A stretch of 64,000 bases of DNA from Dudresnaya verticillata (lineage: Eukaryota), in the NCBI GenBank assembly GCA_977862235.1, contig OZ374557.1, positions 2,790,001 to 2,854,000 of the forward strand, given 5' to 3'. The first letter of the stretch is position 1. Each line of letters starts with the position of its first letter. A program made the position numbers and the translations under genes. The notes under the pieces are model-generated. The model did no database searches, was not told the origin of the DNA, and worked only from the letters and a program-made list of their open reading frames with translations. Shown here piece by piece: positions 1,881 to 54,390 of the stretch.

Positions 1881-1924
1881 ACTCGCGAGAGGTGGAACGC
1901 CGTGAGGCGGGGATGGCGGCGCCC

Positions 1925-10338: not shown

Positions 10339-10414
10339 GAGCTCCCCCGAGATTGCAGCCCGTCCTCGGGACGCCAGGGCAGCCTGCACGTGTTTCGCGC
10401 GAAATCATAACCGT

Positions 10415-12308: not shown

Positions 12309-12855
12309 AACACGCATTTGAGCGATTTCAGAATACGACGTTCGAAACAGACTGGAGTCGAATGCCTATTTTCTGGTATCATTGGAAAGGGGAGCGTCCC
12401 CTGAGTACGGTGGTCAAATCTGATTTGCTAACGGACCATTCCTTCGAAAGTTATGGCGGTTTGCGTGAATTTACCCAAAATATTTTCAGGTATTCTGAAT
12501 TTCAATTTCTTTGCGTCGATTTGGCCCGGGCGGCCCACTCCGCGGTCCGCACTGGGCCAAATTGGAAATTGCTGGCCCGCAGCATGCCCCTCGCCGCGCG
12601 CGCTGCATGCGCGCCACATCGCCCATCTGGCCCGCCCCGAGCGTGCTCGGCGCCGCCTGCAGACTACCCCGTCACCAGTTTTCGGCTTTCTGGTGCAACT
12701 GGTGCACTGTGCTGTGCGCGTCTGTGCACAAATCCGCACGCGACCGCATACAGACTGCCTCGTCACCCGCCCCCCCGCCCCGCCCCGCGACGCACAACTC
12801 CTTGGGCAAAATCTACTGTCGCGGTTGCCCACCCTCGTGCACACCGTGGATCCCG
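12309..12855 (+). repeat. left terminal inverted repeat (~547 bp)
   Basis: Matches the reverse complement of 35356-35905 with about 23 substitutions by eye. Confidence 0.95.
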
Positions 12856-15800
12856 CTGCAGTCACCTCGTCAGCGCGCCCTGCCCGTCGCTCCCCGACCG
12901 CGCTGCACGACCCGCCCGCCCGTATTTCTCTACGATGGGACGCCACATGCCGATTTCATGACAACTCGCAGACACAAGTATGGCCATTCCATGACACGCA
13001 CCCAAAACTACGTAGTTCGTTAGGTAATGATAATAAAATGTATAAGCCTGCAGCTGTTTCCCGGTTAACCACGCGCGCGAACGATTGCGTTTTCGACACT
13101 CCAAAGGTTCCCCGTTCCAACCATGTCCGTAGGCTCATACATTGAGGCAACTTTGCAAGCTCCGTTGGGGGAAAGTAAATGCGGCATTTGGTAAGCTCAT
13201 TCAACCTTGAGGGGGATCGCTTCCAGTCCACCACCATTGCGGTTGATAATAGCGTCCAAACTCCCACGACCCTGCTCCCCAGACGCGTCAGGGTTAATAA
13301 CATTCAGTGTACTCAATAACTGAAGCACTGACAATCTGCGGTGTTAAATGGGCAGGACGTGCTCATGAAAGGGACATGTTTCCGCTGTTGGCGACATTTG
13401 TTGACCCACTTCACATTGACTCGTCAGCTGCCATTGCGGGTTCCTGGTCCAGGTATGGTTCTGCCTGCAAGGCGTATATAGCCTCTTCATGAAAAGGATA
13501 TAGTACATGCGGCAATTGCCAATGCACCTCGGTTGCTTACTGCCTGTGCCATGCATCTCAGTGGGTCTTAATGCATAATTGTGCCCAGCTCGTTCCGTAA
13601 TGCCTGAACGGGTCTGAGTACAGTTGGGAGGGATACCATCAGCCGAGGTTGCTGAAATGAAGACGAGAACCCAGATAGGTCGTTCTGATACCACTATTGA
13701 TAACTCTATTTTGCCGGCGCATACTCCTCTTCCACAATACAGGGCTCGTGCTCGCACATGTATTGAAACAAGCGTCGATATCAACATGTGCAGCATTAAC
13801 TGCCCCGAATACGTGGCGAAGAAGGAATCAATTTGCTGGTCCCGGTTTCGAGAGGATAGTGGGTTAAACTTCGCGTGTCTGAACATTCGACGTGGCAGAC
13901 ATGATGAATCCAATCGTGTTTTTAGGTACAAAAAGTACACGGTATATATCCCAGCGGAACAATAGCGATCCAAGGTCCTGATGCATAAATCCCCCGCTGA
14001 TGTACTACCCCCTGTGCGAGTCCAAACGCAGATCCTCGTACGTAAGGGGAAGATGTCTGACTTCGTACCTAGGGAGCCTGCACGAGAAGTCAGTGATGAA
14101 CTGCTTGGGAAGAGCCAGGATCTGTCGTGTCTGGATTTCAATGCCCTGCGCAGACCAGAGAAAACTGACAAAGATATGGTCCGCCGCATTGGTGAGTCCA
14201 ACTTACTCGCATTAATTGACAACTGCATCTCCGAAGTCAAGCGGTTCACCGGCCTTGAGGCATTGGGAATCAGACTATTCGACCGGTCTGTTTTCCTACA
14301 TTTATGGAACGCGTTCATGGACAGGCAAATGCAAAGAACTACGGACAAACGGAACGAGTTGGAGGTTTGAAGGCCTTCCTAGTTGATATTCAGCAGAGAG
14401 AGGAAAATAATCTGATGTCAAATCCCGACACAGCTATTGTGCTGGAAGTACTCTCGCGGGGACATGGCAAATTCAAAAGCCGCCAGGAGCGTAATTCGTA
14501 TTACGTCGCTCGTCAATAATACAACCGTCGACGTCTTTTCGTTTCTAACATTACCGACGACGAAAGGTACGGCCATAAGCACACGTAGTCAAGACCGACG
14601 CGCGTCTCCAAGTACTACTCTTGCTACGCAATCAGATTGATTGGTCGACTTCATCCTTGGTCGATATTAAAAAGACTTGCACGACGAAGCTTTCTTATAC
14701 ATGACGCGCACGTCATGCTACGCACGGGCCACCCTTGCCTCCTTTACCTCCACAGTCCTTTCTGCGTTAGTTTTGGCAAAATGCCAAGTCAGGAGAGGGC
14801 GGCACATTCGCTCCATCTCCCGTACTGGCTCGCTTGCCAGGCGAATCGCCTCGACCAAGACGGCATCGATTTCATGAGCTTCGGATCGGGAGAAAGCATC
14901 CCCCGATACGTAATCAAGCTTCTTCGTACCCCCACGGTATACCACTGTGAGCATGTTCTGGTCATGATCGTATTGACCCATAACGACCTCAAACTCCCGA
15001 GCACGGTTCTGTTCCATGACTCTTTCTTCATCCTTCACCTCCAAGGATCGCATTATGCGTTCCGAAAATTGCAAAGAGTCACCATTAAGGCGGCGCTGCT
15101 GCTCTGCCAGTCGACGCCTCAATTCACAGCGCATGAGGTCATGAAATGCGCAGAAACCTGACTGTATGTCGTCCGGCAACACCGGGAGGTCAATGAGCAT
15201 GTCGATAGTAATAGGAATGACTACACTCCGGCAAGAAATCCTCTTCCCTGTGTGTACAGCCGTATTTCTGTTCCTCAGTACCGTAGAGGAGGTCTGTGAA
15301 ATGCAACGATTGCGCGCTTTTAAACGGAAAGTAACACTTGCAGCTAATGGTTTTTGCTGTGTACGAGGCTTAGGCATTCTATGTATACAAATAGGGATAT
15401 ATCTTCGATTGGACACGTTCACATTCCGGCAATCAGAATGACCGTACTGTACCGAAGCACTTATACCGGCAGCAGTATGAGGACCCTGCAAAAATGCAGC
15501 CACAACTTGCTGGATAGTTCACATACACCGCCCAGATATTAGGTGGATCCGCAGATCAGACTGTCTGAACCTCCGCAGAATAGGGCTTTTCTGTATTGCT
15601 AGAACGAGGACATGTTGACCTGTGCACAATTCTGGAACGTACTTACAGGGATCACTTGGACACACTGGTACATGCTGTATTATGGTCTCACGTATGGTAT
15701 TAATCATTTCCCTGACCTTGATATTACTTGTATCATTGGGTCACACGCATACTTACGTTTTTCGTGGCATCCGATGGCAGATTGTGATCATCAGTTTGTT

Positions 15801-16625
15801 TCGGTGCTGCAGTGGTCTTATGATGACCATATCTGCAGGGTGGAGGCGCAGGTTTCAGGAAATGCCAATGTTGAACGACTCTGTGAGGGCGGACAGTAAC
15901 CTCTTGCCAATTCGAAAACCCGAGGTTATTCCTATCGTTTCTGAGGAACACGTTCATGTTGGTACAATCTGAATGACTTTACGTTTACGAATCGTTCACA
16001 TCACCCCCAGTCCAAGGGAGTGTGCCTACGCAGGCACACGTACTTCCAATTTCCCCTCCACGTTGTGGAACTATTTCGTATGCCCATTTCTTACCCGCCT
16101 TGAGCATCGTTTAGATACCCTAGTAGGGGAGCTGTGAATCGGAATCACTGTACGGTTGGACGGTTAGAACTGACTTCCAAATATTTTCTGAGAAAGTACG
16201 AACTTAGGGTGAACACCGCTACCGCACAATACGTCGATATATTTACCGACGACCAATAGAACCCTGCAGTGATTTGTAGCTTCATGAAATCTCGCGGAAT
16301 GTATCAGGGCACCACCAATCGTACAGGGCTCTAACTATCTTTCCGGCAAAGTTAAAACCGTACGTGAGGCTTTTAGTCATGCGGACAAACTTCGTTTCCA
16401 GGTTAAAGCTGGAAACCTGCATGATATATCCTGTCTTTCAATGCCGTGACCACTGACCTGACTACGGACATATTGTTGTAAACCCGAAGTGCTCTTCGTG
16501 GAAACCGCAACGCTTATCCCGTGCTCATCAGCTTAACGCAACCAGTTGGAAACACCTACGGCAACCAGTTGGAAAGACGTACGGCGACCGTTTGTTCAAA
16601 AGTGCTGAATTACACTTTTGGCTGG

Positions 16626-19531
16626 ATGGGCAAGAAACGTTCAGGAAAGGGTGCTGTTACACAATCTGAAGCGGACCCAAATTGCTCTTCTGCAAGTATG
16701 GGGAGGGCATTGTTTTCTGACGTGATGGAGGGTTCCGTGAATATGAGAATTGACCCCAGGGCGTGCTTCCCGCTAACGGCAATAAGACCCGTGGTGCGCT
16801 CCGGAGTGGAACGCCTCAAAGCTCGCATTCATCTACACTCATCAGAGAAGAAAGGCGATGAAGGGACTATTGGGTACGTTGCCGGGTCTGACTCTCCAAT
16901 TGTCATCGAAATGACAGGGTCTCTGCGGGGTCACGTCGTTGCGTATTTCAAGAATATGAAAGGGGAAGGGAAGGAGTACACGGAGGAGGAGGCTTTGGAG
17001 AAGGCAAACGATCGCTCCAAATGGTACGGCATTGTTGACGGCTTGCATAGACCTTGCGTTATTTTGGAGTTAATGGAGGAGTTCCCAACAGTCTGGCAGC
17101 CTTTCGCATGGCCTGTAACGATTTTGAAGGGTGGGCACAACGTCCATGAGCTCCGGCAGCTGGAAAGACATCAGAATGAGAGACACGACCAGGGATACTT
17201 TATCGAGACTACATCTTTTGACCTGGTCCGCGGTCTGCGGGAGGAGGCGGAGAGGTTGCAGACCAAGACTGGGAAACAACCAAATGCCCGAAACATTGCG
17301 GAGGCGTATGACGGTTCGAAGTTATATCGTAACAACACCATTAAACAGACTGCTCAGACAGTTATGCGGTTGGATACGAGAGTAATTCACGCATTGGACA
17401 AATTGCAAATGAGGAGAGACCGGATCTAGCTGCAAAGATGACAGGAGACAAGGAAGGGACAACACTCGACAAGGACGGAGCAACGAGGACGGTTGACTGC
17501 CGAGTCTACAGAAAGTTCATCCACATTTCATCACGGAAGTCTGCAATCGCCTTCATGAATGGGAACAAACTTGATGATGGCGTAGAAATACAGATTTAAA
17601 CTTTGTACCGACTACGCGAAGTACATCGACTTCAGAGGTTCCGGTCAGTCACCAGCTTTCAGACTCTGGAACAATTTGGAAGGGCGAAGGCAGCAATAAG
17701 GGAATCACGGAAATTCTAACACCTTATCGAGAGCCAGAGTTGGCCTGAAGGTATGAACGTCATTCGCCATAATCTCCTTCGTTCCACGAAGCCGGACCAC
17801 GAGGTGCGTGCAAACTTCGGAAATGACCACGATGTGCTCAAGCCCTTGATAGCCGCTTATCGAAGGGAATGCCCGCAACAGGCTCCAGTTAAGGAAAAGA
17901 AGTTCAAGCACCAGTTCCAAGCAGAAACTGATTCTGGGAAGGATGCATCTCTAGACATAGGAGAAAGTGACAGGCCAATAGTTTCAGCTTCCGAGATTGA
18001 TAAGACGAGTTCTGAAGTTGATGGAAAAACTCAAGGGGGGAAAGAAAAAGACTCGAAGGGGGCCCTTGGTGGCCAAAAGCAGTCGGAAGCCGTTAAGGAG
18101 ACTGTAACTGACACGCAGAGGCAGATTACGCAATCGGTCCTGGATCCTACAGACGACAACGACACAGGCGCATTAGCTGGTAACAATGACATCCTGAACG
18201 AGTGTATTGGACCGGGTAGTCGTTCTGTTTCTTCAACACGCAAGTCGGAGAGACTGGATACCGGTTCTGATGTGGAGGAGAAGGACCCGCTTTCCAAATG
18301 CAGGATACGAACATATCAGATGAAGTGGGAGGAATATGACCAATCAATCAGGAATGAATTCAGTCCTCTATTTGACCTCGTGCTTGCTGACCCTCCGTAT
18401 GGTACCCCGAAGGGAATGTCAAATGCTGGAACTGCATACGCAAACCATTTCAGTGAAGAAGACATCAAGCGCCTTTGCGAGTTTTGTGGACGTGTTGTGA
18501 AGGAGGCTGGTTGGGTGTTTCTATTCTGCAGCTTCTTGAAATTCCCGTTGTTTCAAAAGGAACTTACCGGCAACAATTTCGATAGTCCGCAGTACCCTTT
18601 CTTACTCTGCAAAGACACAACTACTGTCCAGATAAGTCGCAAGAAGGGACTGCAGAATGGGGCTGAGGCAGCAGCCTTCGGAAGGCGCAAGGGTACATCC
18701 AAGAACTCTTTCTCTCCAGACCTCTCCAGCCCGTACCACTTCATCTCGTGTAAGGAGCGACGAAAGTTTGCTGTGATGACCTCTGTTCCCGTACCCAGAG
18801 ATAAGTTCATGAAGCCAGGGACTAGCAGGGCACCAGTTCTGATGGAGGAGAAAAATCCTGATGCACTTACTGAGATCATCACAACCTTCTGCCCTGAAGG
18901 CGGCTCGGTCCTAGACTCTCATGCGGGGACAATGACTACAGGAATTGCCTGCGTTCGGACAGACAGAGAGTGTTACCTCGTCGAAAGAAACCCGGAAACA
19001 TACAGACTGGCTCGTGCACGCCTGCACCGCATGGCAGAGGAGAAGCAGAACGGGTCGTCTCAAGATGCAGGGGTCCAAGCACAGAAGTGTTCGGCAAAAC
19101 AGATAGACAAACAGCCGGACACGAAGAGGGTACGCACTGATCAGTCTGAAAGGGAATCACAGGCTCTAATGATGTCCCCAGGTAAGCAACAGTCTGGGAA
19201 ACGTACAGGAAAACCTAGGGAGAAACCGCTGTCATGCGATCGACCGCAACGCAAAGGTGGTGACGCAGTTTGGCTGCTGTGTGGTCCAGATAAGGTTGGG
19301 AAGGCAGTACTGAAACCGGGTAACGAGGCCCACGGACTGAAGACAGAAGTACACCAGCACGGGTTGCGGGAGCTCGGCAAGAAGGGAGAGCATCTCGTGG
19401 CTGTATTTTCCTTCAAAGTTCGCGATGAGTTCGCGGAGAGGCCGTATAAGTACACTTTTAAGGGTCCAGAGGAACCGCCAGCACTGCTGCGAGACTTAAC
19501 GCATTCTTCGCATGGGATCTTCACATGATGG
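16626..19531 (+). pseudogene. ParB/Srx-like domain fused to a beta-class N6-adenine/N4-cytosine DNA methyltransferase
   Basis: WYGIVDGLHR (ParB-type DGxHR); FDLVLADPPYG at ~18370-18403; later EKNPDAL...PEGGSVLDSHAGTMTTG (SAM-binding motif I). One frameshift at ~17399 and TAA stops at 17597 and 17717 separate the two ORFs. Confidence 0.85.
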
Positions 19532-19650
19532 AGGGTTGTGATAGAGAGCCATGAAAGTCTGCTCCATCTATTTTTGGCCTATACCGGATGTACATTCTGC
19601 CAGTCGAGGACAGCGGACGGTCCACTGCACATTTCCAGCTGGAAGGAACT

Positions 19651-19974
19651 ATGGCATCCATGCACGCTCGTCGCGACCAAGGCAGCGGAAGTTCGGATGT
19701 CGACCCTGCTCGCCTACTGTCCGAATTGCGTACTCTTCGAGGCGAGGTGGAAGGATTAAGGACGGCAGTGGAAAGGCCTCGACAACGAATGAGGGCGGTG
19801 GTTGCCGCTGTTATGGACCGATTGTCCAGAGTAGTGATAAATGCCGTTCATATTGCCCGAAGTGCTAGAAGAAGGCTGCGGTCAATCGAAAGGGTATTGG
19901 GGATAAAACGCAACGAAGAAGATGAGCCCGACCTGGACTTCGACATTGAGAATCAGTTTCAAGCTTCCATGTGA
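19651..19974 (+). CDS. small predicted coiled-coil protein
   Basis: Heptad pattern LLSELRTLRGEVEGLRTAV; similar to the neighbouring ORF. Confidence 0.45.
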   Translation: MASMHARRDQGSGSSDVDPARLLSELRTLRGEVEGLRTAVERPRQRMRAVVAAVMDRLSRVVINAVHIARSARRRLRSIERVLGIKRNEEDEPDLDFDIENQFQASM

Positions 19975-19999
19975 CTTTTTCAGACTTCGTACAAAAACA

Positions 20000-20278
20000 A
20001 TGCCGCTACCTGTCAATCCAACAATGGCCGAAGTGCAGCGAGAGTTGGCACTTCTACGTGCTGAAATCTACCATATTCGCAACACTGTGCGGGAGCTAGA
20101 AACCGAAGTGCAAAGGGCATTTGAATTCGTAAGACGCCTTGTGCATGACTTCGGGAGAAGGACGTTGAGAACACTTCGCAACGTCAGGATCCGGATTCAA
20201 GACCTGCATAGTTCCGTTCGTGTCGTCAGAGGACGTCAAGATCGCAATGTAGAAGACCCTTCTTCCGATTCCGTCTAG
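20000..20278 (+). CDS. small predicted coiled-coil protein
   Basis: VQRELALLRAEIYHIRNTV; tandem with the previous ORF. Confidence 0.45.
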   Translation: MPLPVNPTMAEVQRELALLRAEIYHIRNTVRELETEVQRAFEFVRRLVHDFGRRTLRTLRNVRIRIQDLHSSVRVVRGRQDRNVEDPSSDSV

Positions 20279-21173
20279 AACTGAGTAGACTGCCATCGGG
20301 CTGTAGTAAAGATGAGAACGGTCCTAGCAATTGCCATCAAGGGTTGCCACTGCGGGAAGCCTGGAGACCAGCAGTGGAATCCATTGCACACATTTGTAAT
20401 GGGACACGGCCATTGCGAACTATTCGTCTTTGCCCTCTTCCGTGAATAACTCGCCCCGAAGGTCCTTCGCTTCGCTGCTCGCGTTTCGCGCATTCACTCG
20501 AGTTCCGCAGACTTAGAGATTCAGCCGTGCGGAATCAGGTCATCGATCAGCTCGAAATGCTTTTCGGTTTTGAGGCTCGCAAGAGACTTGCTAACTTCAA
20601 GCTCGATTTTAGTCGCCTGCCGTATCTCACGTTAGAGAGTTTGGCTCCTATTGCACAAGCGCAAAAGGCAGAGCCTGACCCGTTTCAGACACACACGCAT
20701 GTCTCCGAGCTCAGGAAGGAACTTAGAGAACTCCCTCTCTCGTTTGCGGGCACGGAAGTTGCGTCGGAGCATAGTGACTCGGTTGAAGGTGCGCTTATTG
20801 CCGCCTATGAGGCGATAGAGTATACCCTGCGCATTGGTTCGTGATGTATTGGAGCGCAGGCATCCGGAGCTTGACACCAGCTGTGGCTGTCCGGGTAGAG
20901 ATATGCGCCAGAGTCCACCCCTTGATATGATAAAGGCGTCAGACATGTCGACCTCACAAATGCACCGCCCCGAATCACTTACGTCTGAGGTTCCGGGAGT
21001 GGTGGTGATGAGCGCCTTGGTCATTTGCAGTTGGGCAGTGTCTCTACCAGCGGTTTATCAATTTTTCGCGCGGTGTGGAGCACTGAATCGTTGCAAGCTC
21101 TCTCGCCGAAAACCACAATACTGTTCATAAAACGGCTGCATGCCCTCCGTGTTCATTGGGTGATTCTCATCAT

Positions 21174-21833
21174 CTATGAAGCTACCTTCTGCAAGTCTCT
21201 CACCTCATCAACAACACGTAAAACATCGTCTGCAACCAGTCGCAGTAGCAACTCTTGCTTTCCTCTACTTTCAGCATCATGCCCATTGGTCGCCTTCTCA
21301 AAGTTTTCGATGCCAGTTGTTTTCTTCAGCAAGCGCATGCTTTCCATCACAGCAGCAACGCTTGTCTCTCCCTTCGCGGCACGCGCAAAGAACTCATGCT
21401 TGACAAAGACATTATCACCAGCTTCGTCAGAGGCTGCAAACAACGCTGCCTCATCTCCGAGGTAGTCCACATGCGCGCGATAGAACACAGGAACGATAGC
21501 TGGCACGCGGGCGAGAACTTTCGCAGCATGCGCGCAGCGTTTCTGAAAGCACATATCTGATATCAGCTCGCACATCGTCCAACGCTTGGCGGGAAACTCG
21601 GGTGATACAATGAAGACACCGACTCGAGCTTTCTCCATTGCCGTATCCATCGAGCCGTGTGCGTCATTGCCAACTGCGAGACTTTCCCTGTCTACGAATG
21701 CTGATACGCCCCGGTCGCGGAGCATCCTCCACAAAGGCATAGCCATCGTCTCCTTGTCCATCCCACTGTGGGACACGAACACGTCATACCCCGACGCATT
21801 GAGATAGACCTGCTTTTCCAGGTCCATCCGCAT
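21174..21833 (-). CDS. Toll/interleukin-1-receptor domain protein (possibly a fragment)
   Basis: YDVFVSHSG.DK...AFVD...L..G...A....RVGVFIVSPEF....W...EL pattern; start uncertain. Confidence 0.85.
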   Translation of the reverse strand: MRMDLEKQVYLNASGYDVFVSHSGMDKETMAMPLWRMLRDRGVSAFVDRESLAVGNDAHGSMDTAMEKARVGVFIVSPEFPAKRWTMCELISDMCFQKRCAHAAKVLARVPAIVPVFYRAHVDYLGDEAALFAASDEAGDNVFVKHEFFARAAKGETSVAAVMESMRLLKKTTGIENFEKATNGHDAESRGKQELLLRLVADDVLRVVDEVRDLQKVAS

Positions 21834-23149
21834 CTCGTGCTTCAGTGATGGGAAGCCTTTTCCGAGTATAATCGCGCTCTTGTGCAACGATCCCAACTCC
21901 AATCTTAGTGGGACTGTAGGTTGGGCGTCATCACGCTGCGACAGAGAGTTCCACTTCTGAGACTGCGGAGTAGCTTCGCGCAAAGTCCAACTTTCGTCCG
22001 GTACCCGCCGTCCCTTATGAATCTCAGTCCGACGCCGCCGCTCCCGCCCCCGGACCACAACACACTTCTCCTCTTGCTGCTGGTCTTCCTGGCTGCGCCG
22101 CTTCAGGTTTGCGCCGTCGAGCTTCCACGGTCACTGCTTGCTGCGCGCAACTATGCAGACTGCCCCGTCTTCCTGCCAGACGTCGCCCCCCGGGCGCCGG
22201 CCAGACCCGCATCGTCGGTGGCCAGCCCGCCATGGACTTTATGCGCTCCCATCTCGTTTCGTTCCATGCGGAGGGCTGCGGGGCCTCCCCCATATCCAGG
22301 CGTTGGGCTATCACAGCTCGTAGTGTATGCAGCTGACAAACGTCCTATGCAGATTGCCATCGTCTCTTTCGGCTATGGCTGCGCACGGCCGCGCACGGCC
22401 GAAAATCCCTGGCGGCTACACACGAAAAACATCACAAGCACCGACGCCGACGGACCCTCCAAGCGGAACAACGTCGCCGCCCACGCAGCCATCATCTGCA
22501 GCGAGCGCTAAACCGAGCACGACGCCGGATGCGAAGGGAGGAAGCAGTGGGGACGGGGCGGGGGCGAGGGCTCGACCTACGCTGTGAAAAGGGTTCCAGT
22601 CGTGTGCTGCCCTTGTCAAGGGCGCTGGTGTTGTGTGGTGTGCGTTTTCTTGAGTGGCATTCCAGTGCGTTTTCAGATGATGTCTGGCTCGGAGCGGTGC
22701 GGCTGGGCGTCTCGGGAAAAGTAGCAAACGCAGGAGGACCAAAGTGAAAAGCTATAAACGAATATGAATATCAGCCAATAGCTAATGGCGCCGGAGAAAT
22801 GTAATATCTTAGCTTTTTGATTTCCTCCTCCGCGGGAGCTACATAGCTCCCGTGTTTCCCGAAATCAAAATACCTAAGAAAATAGATATTTACACTCGCG
22901 GCATTCCGTTAGCTACATAGCTCCCATAGTCGCCGAGATGGGAAACCTAAGAAAATAGCTTTTCGAATCTGTCGGCGACAGGGAGCTATAAAAAATATCC
23001 ATATGCGCCGATAGCTCCGGCGGAAGTCTCACTGAATTAGCTATCCAGCTGCTGGTCACCCGCCTGCTGCGGAGCATGTCTCCACGCACCGCAACCTCAC
23101 CGCATGCACCGTCCTCGTGGTCACCACCGTCTCCTACCATCACCACCTC

Positions 23150-25004: not shown

Positions 25005-25949
25005 AAATGATTTTTCTGTCCAACATGTAAGTGCTCGTTAAAATAGTTCATGATAAAGAGTGCAGCGGATGGAGTATGGACTCTGGTAGGGATAGCATCC
25101 GCATGCGGATGCATTCGTAGTGAGAACTAAACCGCTGTGGTGGACTTGCAAGTCCAAAGATAAACTTTGCATTTCAAGAAAGAGCTGCAGTGCAGCATTG
25201 GTAGCTTTCTAAAAAGAGCTCCTTGCGATTACAAATTCGAGATGATACGCGTCCGCACCATTGAAAGCTCACGATGGGACCGTCTATCTCGAGATGTGGC
25301 ATGTATTCACTGTTTGGAAACGATAATGTTAAATCCCAATTGTCACCACAGGTGGCAACGCCATACATACTTCGATCTAGGCGACGCGGCAGCAGATGGA
25401 GGTTCCTTTCCTGGTGGGCTTCAGGTGTCATGTGAGTTGCTTGTCACAAGAATATGTTGAGCAGGCGTGTTGATGAGGAGGTTGAACCTCCTTCGTTTGG
25501 AAACCCTCACACTGAGCCCCAAGACGACATGAGCATCAAGGTTCTTTCAATCGAACACCGCAAGTTGACGTTACCCGTTCGTGACGTATAGACTCATTTC
25601 ACGCCTTATGCTGTGCACGAAAGCACTGGCGCAATGCCTCAATCTCCTTTTATTACTAGTGAAGACAATCGCATCCATTCTGCGATACCCCGAGTAGCTA
25701 CTCGCTAGCACGCTACCGTTCTCATGTGGCCAGCCGAAATTTCATACTGTACCAATGCAGAAGAGAGACCAGTGGTTCTGTTTCGCTTACTTCGTTTGCA
25801 TGCTGCAGGCATTGAAGGTGTTCATCTCACGACTGCTATTCTAAAAGTAATCCGATTTACCCAGCAACGATGCTGCCTCATGACGCAGCGTGCACGCTCT
25901 GTTCCATAGCGTTACATGCTTTCACTCTAACTCTTTCCCATTTCTGCAC

Positions 25950-28900
25950 CCAGAATATTGACACCCCTTTGACGCTTGTTTCGGCTTCACCTCCGTCTCA
26001 CTCGGGGCTAGTTGCTTTCCATGTCATTTGCTCCTGGTCCCCCGCCTCTACAGAAGTACTAATTTCCGGATCGTCTCCTCTCTTTCGCATCTCTAGGGCT
26101 TCCCTGATCTTTCGCTGCACCGTGACGGGTATTCCAGAGTTGGTTAAACGCGCGAACTCCACTAAAACCGAATTCCCCGGGACCGTATCGCTCCACGGTT
26201 TGACATGTCCATTTGCATCGGTTATTCTCGCCTTCCGATAACGCCCGGTGAAAGTATTCCCTCGAGTACTCCTTCTCTCGTACCACTCTACTTACAAATT
26301 GATAACCTTGCCCCCCGTCCGTCTCCCAATTCATCACCTGCCCAAGCCAGAACGGGGATCCTTCGGTACAGTCGTCGCCTAGTACGGCTACAAAGCCGTT
26401 CTTTGTGTAAGTGAGGTCCTGCTCCACTACATTCTCAGGGTCTGACCCGATTCCGTGGGTACGCTAGGGCCGCTCCCATCCGGTTTGTAAGCCCCTTCCA
26501 ACTCAAACACATCCGCCAATGCCCAGTGGAATGGGTCTTCACCGTCCTCGTAAACTCTATCACGAAGTGCCAACAGCTTCTGTAGCTTAAGGTGATTGTT
26601 GATTCTGGTCTCGGCGGATCGTAGACGCTTGGTTACTTCGTGTTCATCTGGCGGTGCTCGACAGGGAGTCGGTGGAGTCCGGTGCAGGTTGGGGGAAATA
26701 ACAAAAACCCCCCTGGCCATCTCGCGTATGTAACGGTTTCCAAGAGTCTTTGCAGCCCCTCTTCACTTCGCAGAGAGTCTTGAACGTACCGGCGTCTGTG
26801 TCCTTAGCTTCTTCGGCACTGAGCCTAAAGTACCGATATTCTGAAATGGGATCGGTACGCCCGAGGTATCTGGTCTCTTTGCACAACCCGGAGAAATTAA
26901 TAATGTGCAACATCTCCGTGACACGCGGTTGAGGAGTGTATGATTGCCGTAGTTCGTGCATGAGGTCATCCATGATAATGGCGTCTCGAACGCGTAATCT
27001 CTTCGAAGTGCAGCTGAAAACTTGATCGATATCGGCATGCGTGTGACCGATGGGGAGAAACGACGCATGCACTTCCGGAAATACACCCATAGCAACGAGA
27101 TACGCCAAGTAGCCGAACATAAACCTGTTCTTATTCTCCCTAGTACAGTTGTTGACCTGGAGGAACAACGTACCCTTCAGTGGCATCCTGTTTCTGCGTG
27201 CCATCAATACGCGATGCAAAGCTTCGATGACATAGTTTGCGCCTGTTCCGAACTCGACAGTCATCGTGAAAAGGTTTAGATGTGGGACTTGGCCATGCTC
27301 TAAAACGCCGATTACTTTGGCCATCATTCCGTGTCCGCGTGTTTCCTTCACCTTGATGTGGAAGTGTGGCAGTCCAAATGCGGACTGGTCAGCACCGTCG
27401 ATGATGAGTGAGCAATAGTTGTTCGGATACATCGAAGCCGTCTCACACTTCCTCCGATATTCTGTTCGCTCCTGCATGACCATTCTCACGTGCCTTGCCC
27501 GCTGCTCGCGAAGCGCTTCGGTTCCCGCTAGATCCGTTGCCGCTTTTGCGAGAAGATCTTTGATCTCCTCACACTCGGAGCATTTTGCAAACCGGTGAGT
27601 TCGCCTGACCTTAATTTGCGGACAGCTGCGGAGCCAGATACTATAAAAGTAGCTCTGTGATGGTGTTGCTCTGTTAGGGTACAGAGTGCGGTGCTCAGTC
27701 ACAAACGTGTTATAGACTGCGAGCTTCTCATAGAAGGGGAGGTGGATTTCAGCCTTGTCTGGTTGCGAATCACCATACACTTCTGCGAGGCGCTCCAAGA
27801 ACGACGTTATCACCTCCATCTGTTCCGTAGAAGTACCACCAACTATCAGCCCCCTCCCTTTCCTTTCGCGGCTCTTGTTTGTTCCTTTCACTGCCGACTG
27901 CAGGTCTCTAGAGAAACCGAAAGCCTTGTCCAGAAATGAGTAACAAACCGGCCGTCCGCTGAAGAAGTACATGTTGGAGTTGGGTTCCAGTAGTCCCGTG
28001 AGGTATCGCTTCCTTTCCGCGCGGTTCTTGTCCATCATTTTGCGTGACTCAACCCTGATGTAGACTGACTCGATGGTTCCGAAGCATTGTTTCGTTTGGC
28101 AGCAGAAAATGTTGAGATATCCTGCATCTCCATCACCTCCACTACCTTTCTCCTCTTCGCAGCCATCAAATGCCCCGATGGGGTTCCTTTCGGACGAGCA
28201 TCATGTCTATAATTCCTCTTCCGGCTCGTCCTAGCACTAGCCTGGCCGTCTCCACGCCCTTCTTTGCCATCTCCTCCCCCTCGGAGGGGTGCCATTCCGG
28301 CGTGTCGGAATCAGAATCCTCCCCATCGTCTGCAGTCCCGACGTCAGGATGCTCTTCTTCAGAAGCGTGATCACGACCTCCCGCACATTCTTCTGCTGTA
28401 TTTTCGACGGGAGTATTGTCTTCTTGTACGCCGTTCCCGGAATCTCCCTTCTCCCGTTCAGCTTCGGCTGGTTTTGGAGCCGCGTCATTTCTTCCCAGTT
28501 TTGATAACCCAGCTTCCGTGTTTTCTTTGCCCTCTAATTGGTACGACCGCGGGCACATACAGGCGGGACGCTCCGGGGTATAAACCAACGCGGTCTGAGC
28601 AACTGCAGCAGCAGGGGGTGTAGAAGGCTCACCTACTATAGCAGCCGGGGGTGTAGACGGAACACGTGGTGTTGCTGACGGTGTAGTAGTGCGGTCATGA
28701 CCTTCTTGATGTGGCTGAGCGCTGGGATCAGACTGACCGGTACGGGTGATTTTTTTCGTCACTGTCCGCTTATGAGCAAGTCCCTGACCCCCCTACGGCC
28801 TGACCGCCTAGTTGACGTCCTGGCACGAACAGTGTGCCTCCCACTCGGTTGCTCCATTTCTATCCGAGGGCAAGCTTCCCCGGTCGCCACGCCGGCTTCT

Positions 28901-29439
28901 CCAGCACCGCTTGTAGGTTGCGGCTTCACAGTGCGGACTTGCTCCCTGTCCCATACATGAATACCCACATTTAGACCAGTTAGAGTGGTGGGGGGAGACT
29001 CTATACTGGGATACTTATACATGTACCTCTTGTCCCCATGTCCATTCCGAATACGGACATTATAGATGACTGTCCATGTCTCCTTCCTCCGCTGCACCTC
29101 TCTTAACCACGTTCCATGCATCTTAACTTTGAATGAACCTGTACTGTCTGCCTCTTCCGGAGACGCCGGAGTCATTGGATCAGCCGTACCCACCTCCTCT
29201 CCGTTCAGCAGCAGCACTACTTTCTTCGACGCTGACATGATTTGCGTGCCAGGGCTGGTTACTGCGGGCGCGCTTCCGCCCCCCTGTTTGCGAATTGGTT
29301 CTTCCGCGGCCGTCTCCGCCGTCGTCTTACCGATAGTCTTGGCCGAGGAATTGTTCCCTCCCATCACGGAGACGGCATGTCTGTCGGCAGTGACCGGCCT
29401 TTGACGCAAAGCAGTGCGACGTTCTCTTGTGCGAGGCAT
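25950..29439 (-). pseudogene. Sola1-like DDD transposase, frameshifted; core at 26644-28038
   Basis: CC..KQC, VCYSFLDKAFGFS, FAKCSEC, IIDGADQ, LQV(N)NCTRENKN and FLPIGHTHADIDQVFS; consecutive overlapping ORFs 28759-29517, 28166-28762, 28035-28295, 26644-28038, 26427-26720 and 26059-26427. Confidence 0.82.
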
Positions 29440-30351
29440 TTTGTACCACGATAGCAGTAAGGGCCTCGTCTCGCTGGTATCAGTGCCGTCAATAGCGCTT
29501 TTGAGTACGCGTCGCACGAGCGTGAGAAAAGAAGGGGTGGGAGGTCAAAAGCGGCCTTTGGAGGCGGTCAGCGCAGCGCGGTGGAACAAGAATATCGGGA
29601 AGAGAACGCAGTGGGCGCCGGAGTGGTGTCACATGCTGAAACCTCGCCAGATAACCTCCTATGCTGTTCTGTGTGCATATGCGAAACGGAATCACCAGTG
29701 AGTGAGCAACGGTCTACCTATCGTTAGTCGTCTGACCCACTCAAAGGAGGCGTTTCTTCGTCCCCTAATTACAATATTGTCTGGTCCCCCGGTATGCTTT
29801 CGGAACATGTGTGGGCTGCAGGCAGTCGGTCACCGATTTGTGGCAAGTATTCTGCTTGTGAAGTGGAATCAGAACGACTGGTGATATTATGCGCTGTCCA
29901 TGTGAACCGTGCACGGTTCACCACGATCCGGACCTTGTACTAGTATTACCGGTGTATTGTAATACATAGCTATAGCGAAAGAATCATCTGAGTGCCGGGT
30001 TCCATACCCTTGAATTGGAATCACAGTGATGAGTGACTCGGGATCCCTGCACCACCCGCACTTCCGGGTGGGAGTCTCAGAATCAGCAGCGAATGGGAGA
30101 GCTCTATTATTGTCCAACAATACCCTGGGGCACCTGAGTTCTGACTTGTAGACCAGGAGACCTTGAGCGCTTGCATCACTCACGTTCACTGAAGTGCTAC
30201 ACAATACATAACCAGAATGCTGTACATGACAGGCTCGAAGTCTTCGCATCGCGAGCAAAGCTGACTGCGTGATCGGGGGTGCATTTGGGACTCCTCTACT
30301 ACAGCTTGCCTAACGTTTATTACAAGCGCGGGACTAGAGGCTGTTTCTGTT

Positions 30352-32562
30352 TCATTTCTGTGCTGCTGTATTCATATTCGCCAGTTCCGTGTCCCCTGCG
30401 CTAGGTACATCCACCATCGCGTCCATGCGAATGATCTTAGAAGCCAGCCTGCGCCCAGCCGCATCTTCCTCCTCTGAGAACGCCCCAGCGAACCGCCGCT
30501 TGTCCTCGGGTCGCACCGGGAACGGCCAGAATACGGGTGTGTATGTCATCCGTGATTCCTTATGCACCATGCCCGCATTGCAAGCATGTAGCTCGCCTTG
30601 CGGTGATATGCAAAACCGGCCGTCTAACCTGTCCATGGCCGCTGTTCCAATGCGTTGGGGTCGATAATGATCTCTCCGTGTGGAGTCAGCACCACCTTCT
30701 TCCCGACATGAGTGTACCCCACGTTTGGTAACTTGGCAAGCATGTCTGGATCCACAACTATGCGCCAGTGCAGAGGTACCACTTCTTTTTACACTCCTGC
30801 AAAGTCGTGATTCCCGACTCGAGGTGATCCAAACGTGGACACGAAAATTTCACGTCGGCTCACATCCAACTTCACCCATGGATCCAGGCTGCAGATTGTT
30901 GCGAGTGCACCTCCTAGACCGTATCCGGTCAAGAAGATAGGTCTTTATCTTCTTGCTCTTAATTGCCGCACCACTTCCCTCACTTCATCTGCAACACTCT
31001 TATAGGCAATCGCAAATCCCTTGTGAATCTTACCGTGTAGATATCTTCTGCCGAATAATCGCTTCAATCGAGTCTTCTCATCTTCACCATAGACACTTGA
31101 GTTCACGACATTACGAATATATTCATGGCTCATCCGTAATGATGTCTTCCAGTTTCGCATTGACGTTGTTCCCTTTAACGTCACAATGACCCTGTCACTG
31201 CAATCAACAACAAGTGCTTGAGTATCTGTTGCCTCGCTTCTCACAGCAGCAACGATATCATACTCAAATGGCAACGGGTTTTCTCTAGGAATGAAGCCGT
31301 CAAACTTTGCAGTCCCATAATAATAGACATACCCATGCAAAGGTGAACATAATGACGTGCGTCTGCATCGTGAACCAGTTTGCTTTCAGCTCAAGACTGT
31401 CCTTCGACTCTCTCTTTCTGTACGTAATCGGTTCAACGATTTGTTGTTCCAATTCATCATCATTGTCAACAACAGAGCGGGGGGTTTCTTCATCATTGGC
31501 CCATGTGACGTCTTTTCAGGCAACGGGTACTTGAGGCCGTTCATCGAAGCTTGCTGACTCGATGATGAGTCTGAACTGCTGAATGACCATCGAGACCCAG
31601 ATTCGCCCAGTTCTACGCTTCTGAAAAAAAGCTTTCACACCCCCGGTACAATTATGGGGAAGATTAACATAAGTAGTCACAATGACATAACCCAGCACCA
31701 AAAGCCCCGGGCCGTGCGTATAAATCCATGTCACATCTGCCCTCACCATGTTGAAGCCAATAACCAGAAGAATGATACTTTCACCTTTCGGTCTGCTAAA
31801 CAGCAGACGAGTGTTCAGACCAATAAACAAAGGGTAGAAAACAAATTTGGTATACAAGAAAAACCTGTATCCAACCCGTTTGCACCAATGCTTCATGTAT
31901 GGTGCCTTCTCCAACAAATTGGTTGTCTTCCATGCCTCATACCCAATAATTGCGATGAACAGCAATTCAATGACTGAAAACGGGATACAGAGGAGGAGCT
32001 CTACCTTCAAATGGCTCCACACGTGATACGCGTTGAAGTAGAACGAGAAAGCAGCAGCTGAGAGCATAGACACTTCAGACAGGGTCATGTCCAACACGTA
32101 CACAATCATAACCTTGGATACAACGTACGGGATAAGCACGAGCAACTTTGGGATATAGAAGCCCCAGACCAATCGCTTAGTGGCCTCCAGAATGCGGTAA
32201 GAGTGCAGTCTTGCCCAAAGGTAGAAGTAAGAGAATCCCGCAAAGGCCACATCACGCAGCACATCATTGGCCACATCCCAGTTGTTATAACAATCCGGGA
32301 AGGTACTGTAATCCAATGTGCTTTCGCCACCATTTGTTTCTATGAGACGGTTGATGGCATGAAGAGGGTTGAAGTAGAGGAATGCCATGAGAGCGAGGAA
32401 GAAGACCCAAACCTGCTCATGCGTAATATTTCTGCGCCCTTGTCTCAACAGCCGTATTCCATAGAGGATAGTGAGCGTTAAGAAGAACATACCCGTGAGC
32501 AATGTCATTCCGTGAGAGAAATTTTGATAACTCGCAGAGGGCAGGGCGAAAGATATGTTCAA
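30352..32562 (-). pseudogene. class-3 lipase with N-terminal multi-pass membrane domain
   Basis: VIVTLKGTTSMRNW, IHKGFAIAY, FLTGYGLGGALA (degenerate GHSLGG), TFGSPRVGN; internal stops and frameshifts. Confidence 0.85.
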
Positions 32563-32799
32563 ACTGTACGCATAGACAAACTTGCCCGGGGGGAACGGTG
32601 GTCGTTCCGGAACTCCTTCACCGCCACCACCTTCACCAATGATTGTCTAACGCAGAATTTTGAATCCGCCGTGGCAAACAGCGACTCCCCAGGTGAAACC
32701 AAGGCCCTTGGAGACGCGTTCATCGTCGCAACGGGTCTGCCGGTTGATGCCGACGGCCTAGGGTCGCTTCAAGGCTGTATGTAGGAGCTTTTGCTCTGG

Positions 32800-33779
32800 G
32801 TCAAGAAGGAGTGCTCTATGGACAATGATCTTGTGGACAAGATTGGCAAACGGCTCTGCTCAGGCGTCTCCAGCGGTAATTTCAGACTGCGTTGCATGGT
32901 TTTGATTTACAACAGAGTTACTCTGTCAACGAAGAGCACGTGCAAAAGCGGTGCTCGCTCCTTGCAGCTACAATTTCCTTAGCAGTCAGTGTTGGGCTAA
33001 TGCCGAAGACTGTCGACACCATTCTGCCGAAAATCGATACTTTCTCACGCCAGTTGCAGGTTGGTGTCCCAGAGAAGCGCAAATATGTATCGGGTGTGAT
33101 ATGAGGCTCTCAAGTTGGCAGACATGGCTAGGGACGCATTTTCTTTCAACATTAAGCAGCTTGGTTTGTATTGCAGTGATACGGATGAAGAGTATGGGCC
33201 CGTTGAAGATGCTGATGTAGATGTAATTGTCCAGGCTGTTCTACTCCCGAAGTTGTATCGATTTGACACCTTGCTTGAACTAGATTCAGTTAAGCGATTC
33301 GGAGCGCAGGACGGCGAACAAAGCTATTTTTCGAGCTCATGATCATCTTTGTCCGCGACGATCTTGCTGTTTTCACGGAGTTCAGAAGCAGGAATGATGC
33401 TCTTCTTGCAAAGTACGAGATTGACGTGGTGATTGCGGAAAACAAGATGAGCCTGCTCACATTTGCTTCACTTGGAATAGACTGTCAGGATCTCGCATAC
33501 AGTATGACTGCGACTGCTCTGCAAATTTCCGAGGGCGAGGTCGAGGATTGGGTTAGCCGTGCGATCAGCTCAGGTCTGGTGGATGCGATGATTAAGCAGC
33601 TGAATTCGTCGGTCGCGATTTATCGATCAACGCAGCGTATGTTTACGCGAGAAGAGTGGCAGACGCTGCCTGAGCGCACCAACATTTGGAAGACTAATAT
33701 CGGAGATCTACTTGCACAGCTGAGGGACACCCGACCAGCATCCGCTGTAGCGGGTTTTGGCAGGAACGAAGGGTTGTAA
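32800..33779 (+). pseudogene. eIF3m: eIF3 subunit M-like PCI-domain protein
   Basis: KMSLLTFASL...EVEDWVSRAISSGLVDAMIKQLNSSV.IYRSTQRMFTREEWQTL; upstream part broken into several frames. Confidence 0.8.
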
Positions 33780-33882
33780 ATTCGGTAGTTTATGTGCCGG
33801 CAAGACGTTCTGAGCATATGTGCATCACCTCACTTATTGTTCTAGCGGCTGCGATTACGCTGCATTGACCGCGAGAAGTTTG

Positions 33883-34659
33883 CTATTCTGAGTAGTGCTT
33901 ACCGCATGTACCCATGCAATGTACAGCTCTTGAAGCTTGCAAGGTATCGAGTGCATTTATACCCTCCTTCAGCATCTTGTCCCACCAAGGCCAGGAAAAA
34001 CCCTCAACAATGTGGTAGAACCAAGGCGTAAGACGAAGAGTCGAGGAGATCTGCGCCTCCTTGAAAAGCCCATTCAATTCTTCTCGAGTGACATAGCGTA
34101 CTGCTCGTACGTCGTTTGGTTCAGAAGCAATATCACTATAGCGCTACGTCCTTCACGCCCATGAACACGTAATCACTCTCATGCTCACCCCACACCCCTC
34201 CGTCATTTTCACCACGGTAATGAATGCGAGTCATGTAGTGCAGCTCGTCCATACCGACCTCTCCCCCTTTGTCACCGAGCTAGCTCATGAGACAGCTTCC
34301 GAATGGCAGCACGCATGACCCCTGCAAGCGCATCTCCACTGTCCTGCCGACCAAGCTCAGCAGGCGTGTGGAGCGGATGAGCGCATACGGTTTTCGTCCA
34401 GAACGACAGGAAGGTGATTTTCTTCGCTGCACGTTATTGGAGAAGCATGCACCCCTTGGTATCGAACAAAAACACGGAGAACGCACGATGCAGCGGCAGG
34501 TTGTTTGAAACCATGGTGTGTGTGCACCTGCAGGTGGGACTCCTTCTTCGACATGCTACCAACAACTCTGTCCTGTAGATCAGCGAGGACGACCACCTCT
34601 GACATTAGCCGAACTTGCTCTGGGTCCGACCCTGTCAACGCGTGCACAAACCCCGTCAT
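33883..34659 (-). pseudogene. IDI1: isopentenyl-diphosphate delta-isomerase type I
   Basis: EQVRLMSEVVVLADLQDRVVGSMSKKESHL, LHRAFSVFLFD...LLQ*RA.KKITF..FWT..VC.HPL, GEHESDYVF, and LTPWF...WWD. Confidence 0.88.
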
Positions 34660-34914
34660 GCTTCCTGCAAATCGTCGGCTTGTTCAGGAAGGATTCAGTT
34701 GATGATTGAAGTGGTTACAGCGATCGCTCGAAGCAGCGTCATGCGAGAGTCATGCGTCGCCTATTACTGTTGCATTGGCGAAGCTAACGCGCGAACGAGT
34801 GGATGTCGACCTCAGTCAATGTGCGAGGCTGTCTTGTAGGACTTGCAGTCCTGAAATAGGTGGTTACTGTTGCTTTGACGTGCACTACATCAACTACATC
34901 AGCCCTGCAGGTAA

Positions 34915-35322
34915 TTGCGTAACTTCATAACACAAAACCTGAGAGTTACATCTCTATCGGGATCATTTTCAGGGCCGCTACCAACATGGAGTGACATGCG
35001 TCTGAACGAAAGGAAGCTGGCCGAGGCCGGAGGTCGACGATACACAGCCAGAATGCTACCGACCGACCCAGCCCCGCTGGCGTTGGTTGAAGAGGTCCGC
35101 GCCCTGCGCGCTGAGGTGGACGAGGCTCGCGCGTTGGCTGCGGAGGAGCTGGACACAACTGTCTGGCTCCGGGTCCAGATGATGGGGTGGGCTCGCGACA
35201 TGATTGAGAGGGCTGGCCTGGTTGGAGAGGGGGTGATGCGAGGGGCTGTAGTGGTGATGGCTCTTTTAGGGTGGGAAGTGCCGGAGGAGTGGACGGTGGA
35301 GGACCCTGGTTCAGATGTGTAA
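34915..35322 (+). CDS. small hypothetical coiled-coil protein next to the right terminal repeat
   Basis: LVEEVRALRAEVDEAR resembles the ORFs at 19651 and 20000. Confidence 0.4.
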   Translation: MRNFITQNLRVTSLSGSFSGPLPTWSDMRLNERKLAEAGGRRYTARMLPTDPAPLALVEEVRALRAEVDEARALAAEELDTTVWLRVQMMGWARDMIERAGLVGEGVMRGAVVVMALLGWEVPEEWTVEDPGSDV

Positions 35323-35355
35323 GTAGCAAGAACAGTAAAGGGGTTAGTTGAGAAT

Positions 35356-35905
35356 CGGGATCCACGGTGTGCACGAGGGTGGCCAACCGCGGCAGTAGAT
35401 TTTGCCCAAGGAGTTGTGCGTCGCGGGGCGGGGCGGGGGGGGGGCGGGTGACAAGGCAGTCTGTATGCGGTCGCGTGCGGATTTGTGCACAGACGCGCAC
35501 AGCACAGTGCACCCGTTGCACCAGAAAGCCGAAAAATGGTGACGGGGTAGTCTGCAGGCGGCACCAAGCACGCGCGGGGCGGGCCAGATGGGCGATGTGG
35601 CGCGTATGCAGCGCGCGCGGCGAGGGGCATGCTGCGGGCCGGCAATTTCCAATTTGGCCCAGTGCGGACCGCGGAGTGGGCCGCCCAGGCCAAATCGACG
35701 CAAGGAAATTGAAATTCAGAATACCTGGAAATATTTTGGGTAAAATCACGCAAACCGCCATAACTTTCGAAGGAATGGTCCGTTAGCCAATCGGATTTGA
35801 CCACCATACTCAGGGGACGCTCCCCGTTCCAACAATACCAGAAAATAGCTATTCGACTCCAGTCTGTTTCGAAAGTCGTATTCTGAAATCGCTCAAATGC
35901 GTGTT
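35356..35905 (-). repeat. right terminal inverted repeat (~550 bp)
   Basis: Reverse complement of 12309-12855. Confidence 0.95.
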
Positions 35906-36198
35906 ACTCGTAGGGCGTCTCCTTTCCAACCCCGTCGCCTTGCGTCTTCTCGTTCGGGTGACTTCGAGGAGTCGGTTGGGAAACGTTCCCATTACCAGTA
36001 GGTATTCTGATTAGATGAGCCTCAAGGGTGACCTGAAGAGTGTCCTGTAAAACATCTTATGTCTTGTGTTGTATCTCCCTATATGGCTGTCCTTTGTCTT
36101 GGTTTCTTTGAGAGTACAGTATACTGTAGGCAAGTAGCGTAGAATGAATAGAAAAAGTGAAGAGGGGGAAAGACCTAGTGCCGATTCATTTGACTCCA

Positions 36199-40268: not shown

Positions 40269-40291
40269 ATTTGGGGAGGGGGCATGCGTCG

Positions 40292-54383: not shown

Positions 54384-54390
54384 ATTATCT

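What the first reader, a model, noticed from the sequence alone, without database searches (positions are those of the whole stretch)
12309..35905. 23.6-kb cargo-carrying Sola-like DNA transposon with 550-bp terminal inverted repeats
Seen: precise AACAC...GTGTT ends, long inverted repeats, a 4-bp TSD, and the empty target site in a paralog within this window, so the whole 23.6 kb moved as one unit. It contains a DDD transposase, a DNA methyltransferase gene and at least five host-like genes. Knowledge: Sola elements make 4-bp TSDs and are usually a few kb. Inference: a giant gene-ferrying Sola1-type element, which I do not recognise as described. It is the best candidate for a new system in this window.
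Basis: partly seen in the sequence, partly recalled or inferred. Interest (0 to 1): 0.92.

Follow-up and report, generated by a model that had tools for sequence, protein, structure and literature searches.

The report
Giant Sola transposon carrying DNA methylase
This 23.6-kb piece of DNA, likely from a red seaweed, jumped as one unit and carries a broken transposase, a broken gene predicted to bind and methylate DNA, and broken copies of ordinary host genes; the design is already described from a brown alga, but here the transposase and the methylase appear to share a small domain that might link them.

Summary
The structure is real: 547/550-bp terminal inverted repeats (95%), AACAC...GTGTT ends, a 4-bp ACTC duplication and the empty site in a paralogous repeat. 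The element encodes a DUF7869 DDD-type transposase and, facing it, a ParB-fold / N4-N6 DNA methyltransferase fusion. That design is in print: the 21.5-kb Sola1-1_Ec32 of Ectocarpus (AACCG ends, 4-bp TSD, ParB-methyltransferase on the opposite strand). It is not a new system. eIF3m is 72% identical to Chondrus, so the host is likely a florideophyte red alga. New here: a roughly 95-residue SH3-like domain ends the methyltransferase and also lies upstream of the transposase core, and one other transposase has it in frame at its N-terminus. It could dock the methylase on the transposase; this is untested. Sola1 membership could not be tested against reference sequences. Verdict: new member of a known kind.

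The parts
12305..12308 (+). Left target-site duplication ACTC
12309..12855 (+). Left terminal inverted repeat, 547 bp, begins AACAC
12856..16600 (.). Unassigned internal DNA with several 110-340-codon frames (13618-14370 +, 14718-15518 -)
   Evidence: no significant Pfam or NCBIfam hit
16626..19548 (+). ParB-fold / N4-N6 methyltransferase / SH3-like fusion gene, broken: frameshifts near 17390 and 19505, stops at 17599 and 17719; DPPY motif kept
19253..19530 (+). SH3-like domain at the C-terminus of the methyltransferase
   Evidence: HMM E 3e-14
19555..20278 (+). Two short coiled-coil-like frames, weakly like the one at 34915-35322
   Evidence: pairwise E 3e-4 and 5e-3; function unassigned
21174..22130 (-). 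TIR-domain frame, open for 318 codons; origin not tested
   Evidence: PF13676 E 1e-11; best solved relatives are bacterial TIR domains, E 9e-11
22990..25050 (+). Two-pore-channel gene piece, several frameshifts and stops; limits approximate, read by eye
   Evidence: PF00520 E 2e-5; TPC2 E 1e-4; translation
26094..28110 (-). DUF7869 DDD-type transposase, broken: second catalytic Asp reads Asn (27151-27153); frameshifts near 26715, 26458, 26319; stop at 26292
28111..29436 (-). Inferred N-terminal part of the transposase, split over three frames; holds the SH3-like domain at 28930-29223
   Evidence: HMM E 4e-16; same domain in frame at the N-terminus of transposase P0089; model pLDDT 88
30300..32646 (-). 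Membrane region plus class-3 lipase gene piece; stops and frameshift, nucleophile motif reads GYGLG; lower limit approximate
   Evidence: PF01764 E 3e-4; translation
32647..33779 (+). eIF3m gene piece, residues 55-420 of 427, 3 frameshifts and 2 stops; abuts the lipase piece head to head
33880..34660 (-). Isopentenyl-diphosphate isomerase gene copy, near full length, 3 frameshifts and at least 1 stop
   Evidence: three pieces hit human IDI1 at E 0.03, 4e-6, 2e-8
34915..35322 (+). Short coiled-coil-like frame
35356..35905 (-). Right terminal inverted repeat, 550 bp, ends GTGTT
35906..35909 (+). Right target-site duplication ACTC
57320..57323 (-). Empty target site (single ACTC) in the inverted paralog of the interrupted repeat

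Best explanation
This is a decayed copy of a giant DDD-type DNA transposon, likely of the Sola1 kind and likely in a red alga, that inserted as one 23.6-kb unit with a 4-bp duplication and carries a gene predicted to bind and methylate DNA plus broken host-gene copies. Shown: the ends, the duplication, the empty site, the gene content and the breaks. Inferred from known DDE chemistry: a transposase bound the 550-bp ends, cut the element out and joined it at a 4-nt staggered cut; this copy can no longer do so itself and would need a partner in trans. Inferred from domains and from the Ectocarpus and Bostrychia papers: the ParB-methyltransferase is an accessory protein of the element, which would load on its own DNA and write N6-adenine or N4-cytosine marks that favour its expression or movement (about 60% likely; a non-catalytic binding role is the main alternative). 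Inferred: the cargo was copied in piecemeal, Pack-MULE fashion, probably during gap repair (recalled model), and rides as neutral passenger. Speculative (about 25%): the shared SH3-like domain docks the methylase on the transposase.
For: TIRs, TSD and empty site. DUF7869 transposase with 95 homologues at 29-57% identity, 91 of 95 pre-annotated PF25273; D1, D2, D3 conserved in 78 of 78, 80 of 81 and 82 of 85 motif-matching homologues among the 95. No internal TIR pair around the transposase. ParB part: 303 cluster representatives; 36 of the 40 hits of 750 aa or more carry PF01555; intact homologues span both window frames; model pLDDT 91, top folds Noc, ParB, PadC. Same design in Sola1-1_Ec32. 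ParB-motif frames lie head to head with DUF7869 transposases in 3 of 86 fetched loci (34 had 700 bases or more upstream; 0 in 20 shuffles), on branches apart from this one. eIF3m named hits are all florideophytes and its match starts at 32647, where the lipase frame begins. Frameshifts are denser in eIF3m (3 in 1.1 kb) and IDI (3 in 0.75 kb) than in the core genes (5 in 4.9 kb) (small numbers).
Against: Only one copy seen; no genome was held, so pairing, TSD and cargo of other copies are untested. No Sola1 reference sequence was available. ACTC does not fit the AWWT target called a hallmark of Sola1. The ParB fold match did not reach E 0.001 (best 1.7e-3). Only 12 of 38 long homologues keep a [DNS]PP[YFW] motif, so catalysis may be dispensable. 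Of the three linked ParB-like frames only L030 scored with the family profile (E 7e-5), and all three loci are too short to show a methyltransferase. No tandem array of candidate ParB sites as in Bostrychia Plavaka. Source loci of the cargo were not seen.
Confidence: 0.8

Rival explanations
1. The ends belong to another 4-bp-TSD element, and the DUF7869 transposase (with or without the methyltransferase) is itself cargo or a nested insertion.
For: Nested insertions are common in giant algal transposons; accessory genes hop among red-algal TE families; no second copy was available.
Against: No inner inverted repeat or TSD around the transposase; ends begin AAC like Sola1-1_Ec32; transposase region and methyltransferase share a domain; no other transposase among 184 frames scanned, 173 of them in or overlapping the element.
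Confidence: 0.1
2. The element is intact and active and ferries working host genes; the breaks are errors of a long-read assembly.
For: Indels outnumber stops; two transposase frameshifts sit in G6 runs; the TIR-domain frame is open.
Against: Only 2 of 8 frameshifts lie near a run of four or more, against 15% of random sites; five in-frame stops in three genes; Asp-to-Asn at the active site; lipase nucleophile motif altered; eIF3m lacks its first 54 residues.
Confidence: 0.06
3. The accessory protein is a non-catalytic DNA- or chromatin-binding shield (anti-silencing by occupancy, as recalled for VANDAL VANC), the methyltransferase fold acting as a reader or decoy. This concerns the accessory gene only.
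For: 26 of 38 long homologues lack a canonical [DNS]PP[YFW] motif yet keep long open frames; inactive methyltransferase domains are described in DIRS1 elements.
Against: This copy and its closest intact relatives P0318, P0097 and P0100 keep DPPY and the SAM-binding segment.
Confidence: 0.3

Closest known systems
Sola1-1_Ec32 of Ectocarpus (PMC12477816; passages and supplementary table rows read)
   Same: 21.5 vs 23.6 kb; 4-bp TSD; long imperfect TIRs; ends begin AAC; ParB plus N4/N6 methyltransferase gene of about 1000-1100 aa on the strand opposite the transposase; carries an extra gene.
   Different: Red rather than brown alga (inferred); TIR 550 vs 282 bp; AACAC vs AACCG; five recognisable host-type genes; both core genes broken, whereas Ec32 is listed as autonomous. 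Its sequence could not be read, so homology and the SH3-like domain are untested there.
Giant Plavaka (EnSpm) elements of Bostrychia and Chondrus with PAG1-3 (bioRxiv 10.1101/2025.02.11.637652; PMC6431247; passages read)
   Same: Red-algal giant DNA transposons of 16-20 kb with ParB-like and PF01555 accessory domains that move among TE families.
   Different: There ParB is fused to a 2OG oxygenase and the methylase to SET, in separate genes beside tandem repeat arrays; here ParB and methylase are one gene, with no SET or oxygenase hit, no array and a DUF7869 transposase.
Pack-MULEs (described in PMC6431247; details recalled)
   Same: Long TIRs enclosing pieces of host genes; at least one junction between two truncated genes; would move in trans.
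   Different: 4-bp TSD, non-Mutator transposase still on board, kilobase-sized and near-whole gene copies.
Sola2 (alignment in PMC3627910 additional file 10, part 1 of 2 read)
   Same: DDD triad with similarly placed NK and GH motifs; 4-bp TSD.
   Different: Sola2 reads DF[AS]ENY / SDG..QYKN / ATSHGK..CDG; this family reads DGADQ / DNC.RENKN / FLP[VI]GHTH.D.DQ.

Membership tests
Sola superfamily | DDD transposase | tested here: met
   Three conserved Asp across the family; in this copy the second reads Asn
Sola superfamily | 4-bp target-site duplication | tested here: met
   ACTC, checked against the empty site; definition
Sola superfamily | TIRs within the reported 11-1124 bp; size mostly 2-9 kb, some over 15 kb | tested here: met
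   547/550 bp, 23.6 kb; ranges
Sola superfamily | Transposase clusters with curated Sola transposases | not testable with these tools
   No Repbase; Bao 2009 and Yuan and Wessler 2011 not held; no paper names DUF7869; the tree has no Sola reference
Sola1 | AWWT target preference | tested here: not met
   ACTC at the one site seen; hallmark stated in PMC3845634. Sola1-1_Ec32 is also noted with another bias
Sola2 | Sola2 catalytic motifs | tested here: not met
   Motifs compared by eye with the published alignment
Sola1-1_Ec32-type giant element | ParB plus N4/N6 methyltransferase gene opposite the transposase | tested here: met
Sola1-1_Ec32-type giant element | Sequence homology to Ec32 proteins | not testable with these tools
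   FASTA supplements cannot be read
Plavaka/EnSpm with PAG cassette | EnSpm transposase; methylase-SET and ParB-oxygenase genes; tandem arrays | tested here: not met
   DUF7869 transposase, no SET or oxygenase hit, no array
Pack-MULE | Mutator ends with 7-12-bp TSD | tested here: not met
   4-bp TSD; Mutator range
Pack-MULE | Gene fragments from several unlinked loci | tested here: inconclusive
   One head-to-head junction at 32646/32647; source loci not available
ParB/Srx superfamily | ParB/Srx fold and DG.HR motif | tested here: met
   Top ten Foldseek rows are Noc, ParB, PadC (best E 1.7e-3, prob 0.99); motif conserved. CTP binding not tested
SH3-like barrel (shared domain) | Structural match to a named SH3, Tudor or KOW family | tested here: inconclusive
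   Best Z 4.0, rmsd 3.5, 63 aligned; the listed rows are almost all SH3-like barrels; Foldseek best E 0.57; no Pfam hit

The most novel reading that the evidence does not exclude
A widespread algal family of giant Sola-type transposons encodes a two-protein self-marking machine: transposase and ParB-clamp methyltransferase carry the same SH3-like domain, pair through it, and so load an N6-adenine or N4-cytosine writer on the element at each transposition, protecting tens of kilobases including captured host genes from silencing.
Probability: 0.25. Interest if true: 0.75.

Novelty: new member of a known kind. Interest (0 to 1): 0.42.

Why it matters
Whether algal transposons write their own DNA marks is an open question raised in the Ectocarpus and Bostrychia papers. 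This element extends the Sola plus ParB-methyltransferase design to a likely red alga, shows the accessory protein to be a large unnamed family (303 representatives) with intact members, and points to a domain apparently shared with the transposase, which gives a concrete binding test. It also shows capture of kilobase-sized housekeeping gene copies, which can mislead gene annotation in seaweed genomes. This copy itself is decayed and its overall design is already in print.

Tried and rejected
No genome was held, so no copy survey. Sequencing runs: none was listed for 12309-22000. Word-index search with the methyltransferase frame found nothing; the profile-library search with the ParB part did. 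Viral contigs held no relative of the transposase or the ParB part. Metagenome loci were mostly under 6 kb; none matched the TIR or any other frame of the element by BLAST. The 640-bp inverted repeat in L071 gave no clear ends or TSD. Genome contigs gave 6 loci in MAGs, read as likely eukaryotic contamination. 144 further frames, 141 of them short, had no Pfam hit. The weak amine-oxidase hit at 20446-20841 (E 0.009) was not confirmed. No Rfam match. No solved relative of the transposase. The complex prediction for the shared domain was not available, so there is no verdict on binding. Earlier findings of the scan: none. Rejected: a 5-bp TSD (does not fit the empty site), Sola2, Plavaka, Mutator.
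Full report
Observation. The arms 12309-12855 and 35356-35905 align at 95.3% over 550 columns, with 23 substitutions and one 3-nt indel. The flanks read ...GGAGACTC|AACAC and GTGTT|ACTCGTAG. An inverted paralog of the interrupted repeat (57112-60680; 7-10.5% mismatches) reads through with one ACTC. The duplication is therefore 4 bp and the 23,597 bases are one insertion. Random flanks matched over 4 bases at 29 of 8414 pairs. The target repeat lies beside gag and reverse-transcriptase frames at 365-3259 and is likely part of an LTR retrotransposon; a chromodomain-bearing Ty3/gypsy pol follows at 36199-39327.

Host. The eIF3m piece found 56 relatives; those with a species name are Chondrus crispus (72%), Agarophyton chilense and Gracilaria domingensis. 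The host is likely a florideophyte red alga and this cargo gene comes from the host lineage. No genome was held.

Transposase. 26647-28200(-) is PF25273/DUF7869 (E 4e-44) with 95 homologues at 29-57%. Among those 95, the three acidic positions are Asp in 78 of 78, 80 of 81 and 82 of 85 sequences that matched each motif pattern; the rest did not match the pattern. This copy has Asn (AAC) at the second. A frameshift-aware alignment to P0001 gives three frameshifts and one stop in the C-terminal third. The motifs differ from the published Sola2 alignment. That DUF7869 of this type is Sola1 is inferred from the likeness to Sola1-1_Ec32 and from recall; it was not tested, since Bao 2009 and Yuan and Wessler 2011 are not held and no paper names DUF7869. 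ACTC does not fit the AWWT preference given for Sola1.

Accessory gene. 16482-17426 and 17720-19525 are one gene: intact homologues P0097, P0100 and P0318 cover both frames. It has a frameshift near 17390, stops at 17599 and 17719 and a second frameshift near 19505. The N-terminal part has 303 representatives at E 0.001 or better. Of the 150 listed I scanned the 40 of 750 aa or more; 36 carry PF01555. The model of the N-terminal part (pLDDT 91) ranks Noc, ParB and PadC first, best E 1.7e-3, none at 0.001 or better. The methylase has DPPY before the SAM-binding segment, as in beta-class enzymes (class recalled; NCBIfam hits to CcrM-like enzymes far below cut-off). Against catalysis as the conserved role, only 12 of 38 homologues of 800 aa or more keep a [DNS]PP[YFW] motif. 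None of the ParB-family proteins looked up carries a source name.

Linkage elsewhere. Of 86 fetched transposase loci, 3 (L019, L028, L030) have a frame with the ParB-type DG.HR motif head to head with the transposase; 34 loci had 700 bases or more upstream; 20 shuffles gave 0. Only L030 scores with the family profile (E 7e-5), Pfam support is weak (GmrSD_N E 0.03, DndB E 0.14) and the contigs are too short to show a methylase. In a quick tree of 86 rows (142 eligible, two thirds of the protein hits thinned out; careful search unfinished; no Sola references) the four linked transposases fall in three places: an old or repeated association.

Shared domain. A profile from the C-termini of 14 ParB-methyltransferases hits this element twice: the end of the methylase (E 3e-14) and the frame 28762-29544(-) upstream of the transposase core (E 4e-16), among 4600 sequences. 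It also hits residues 6-98 of P0089 (E 4e-12), whose residues 458-742 match the transposase. P0089 is the only one of the 95 homologues long enough at the N-terminus to show it; that search was limited to 812 aa. So the upstream frame is likely the N-terminus of a transposase of about 1100 aa now split over frames; introns or a separate small gene are not excluded. The domain folds with pLDDT 88 and resembles SH3-like barrels weakly (best Z 4.0; KorB C-terminal domain, chromo, Tudor and integrase C-terminal domains among the ties). Pfam has no match. It is present in 15 of 38 long homologues, 14 of them the training set. The passages I read do not mention such a domain; no search was aimed at it. 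Binding is untested.

Cargo. TIR-domain frame 21174-22130, open, closest solved relatives bacterial TIR domains. Two-pore-channel piece with several breaks. Membrane plus lipase-3 piece with stops and an altered nucleophile motif. eIF3m residues 55-420 of 427 with 3 frameshifts and 2 stops; its match starts at 32647, next to the first base of the lipase frame on the other strand, a chimeric junction. IPP isomerase near full length in four frames. Two of 8 frameshifts lie near runs of four or more bases against 15% of random sites, so most breaks look real, though reads were not available (none listed).

Mechanism. Shown: one-step insertion with a 4-bp duplication. Inferred: cut-and-paste by the DDD transposase acting on the long ends; present copy non-autonomous; cargo copied in piecemeal and carried as passenger; accessory protein binding and probably methylating element DNA; possible docking through the shared domain.

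Prior art. PMC12477816 (passages; supplementary rows; FASTA files unreadable) describes Sola1-1_Ec32: 21,549 bp, AACCG-CGGTT, 282-bp TIR, 4-bp TSD, best hit Sola1-1_PPa, a 1104-aa ParB plus N4/N6 methylase on the opposite strand, and proposes self-modification. The Bostrychia preprint (passages; 'Sola' absent from the main text; supplements closed, and its Table 6 may list red-algal Sola elements with such genes) describes giant Plavaka elements with related domains. PMC10741241, PMC3845634, PMC6431247, PMC4738411, PMC4455052, PMC10294476 and PMC3627910 (supplement 10 part 1) were read as passages. Iyer 2011 was not read. Ten searches listed no paper on a red-algal giant Sola; Repbase and Dfam could not be checked.

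Verdict. Real, well delimited, decayed; a new member of a described kind. The shared domain and the size of the unnamed accessory family are the parts worth following. Interest 0.42.

Noticed in passing
window 51022-53906 (-), with frames at 45165-49360 (-): SF1 helicase gene (AAA_11, AAA_12) split by a frameshift, among unassigned long frames between two retroelement remnants; possibly another large mobile element. No terminal inverted repeat found in 43900-57200.
   Followed up: partly
window 36199-40373 (-): Chromodomain-bearing Ty3/gypsy pol, broken, starting about 290 bases right of the element.
   Followed up: partly
window 10262-12308 (+): The interrupted repeat has a long frame with no Pfam hit, antisense to the nearby gag-pol; cut by the insertion.
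   Followed up: no
window 19555-20278 (+) and 34915-35322 (+): Three short coiled-coil-like frames inside the element resemble each other weakly; may be a further accessory family.
   Followed up: partly
window 21174-22130 (-): The TIR-domain frame is the only open cargo frame and has a Glu where TIR NADases have their catalytic residue (position recalled); closest solved relatives are bacterial.
   Followed up: partly
L019:1-966, L028:307-1200, L030:622-1307 (all -): ParB-motif frames head to head with distant DUF7869 transposases in metagenome contigs.
   Followed up: partly
P0110, P0111, P0115, P0116, P0121 and others: Many ParB-methyltransferase homologues keep long open frames but have EPP or other variants in place of DPPY.
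   Followed up: no
window 42960-43875: 353-bp inverted repeat with a 210-bp spacer inside retroelement-like DNA.
   Followed up: no
window 8644-8923 and 58328-58451: Perfect tandem duplications of 140 and 62 bases; the second borders a 500-base insertion in the paralog.
   Followed up: no
L084:8850-12500: A fragmented, AT-rich DUF7869 transposase with tandem repeats in a 732-kb contig of a bacterial MAG; looks eukaryotic.
   Followed up: partly
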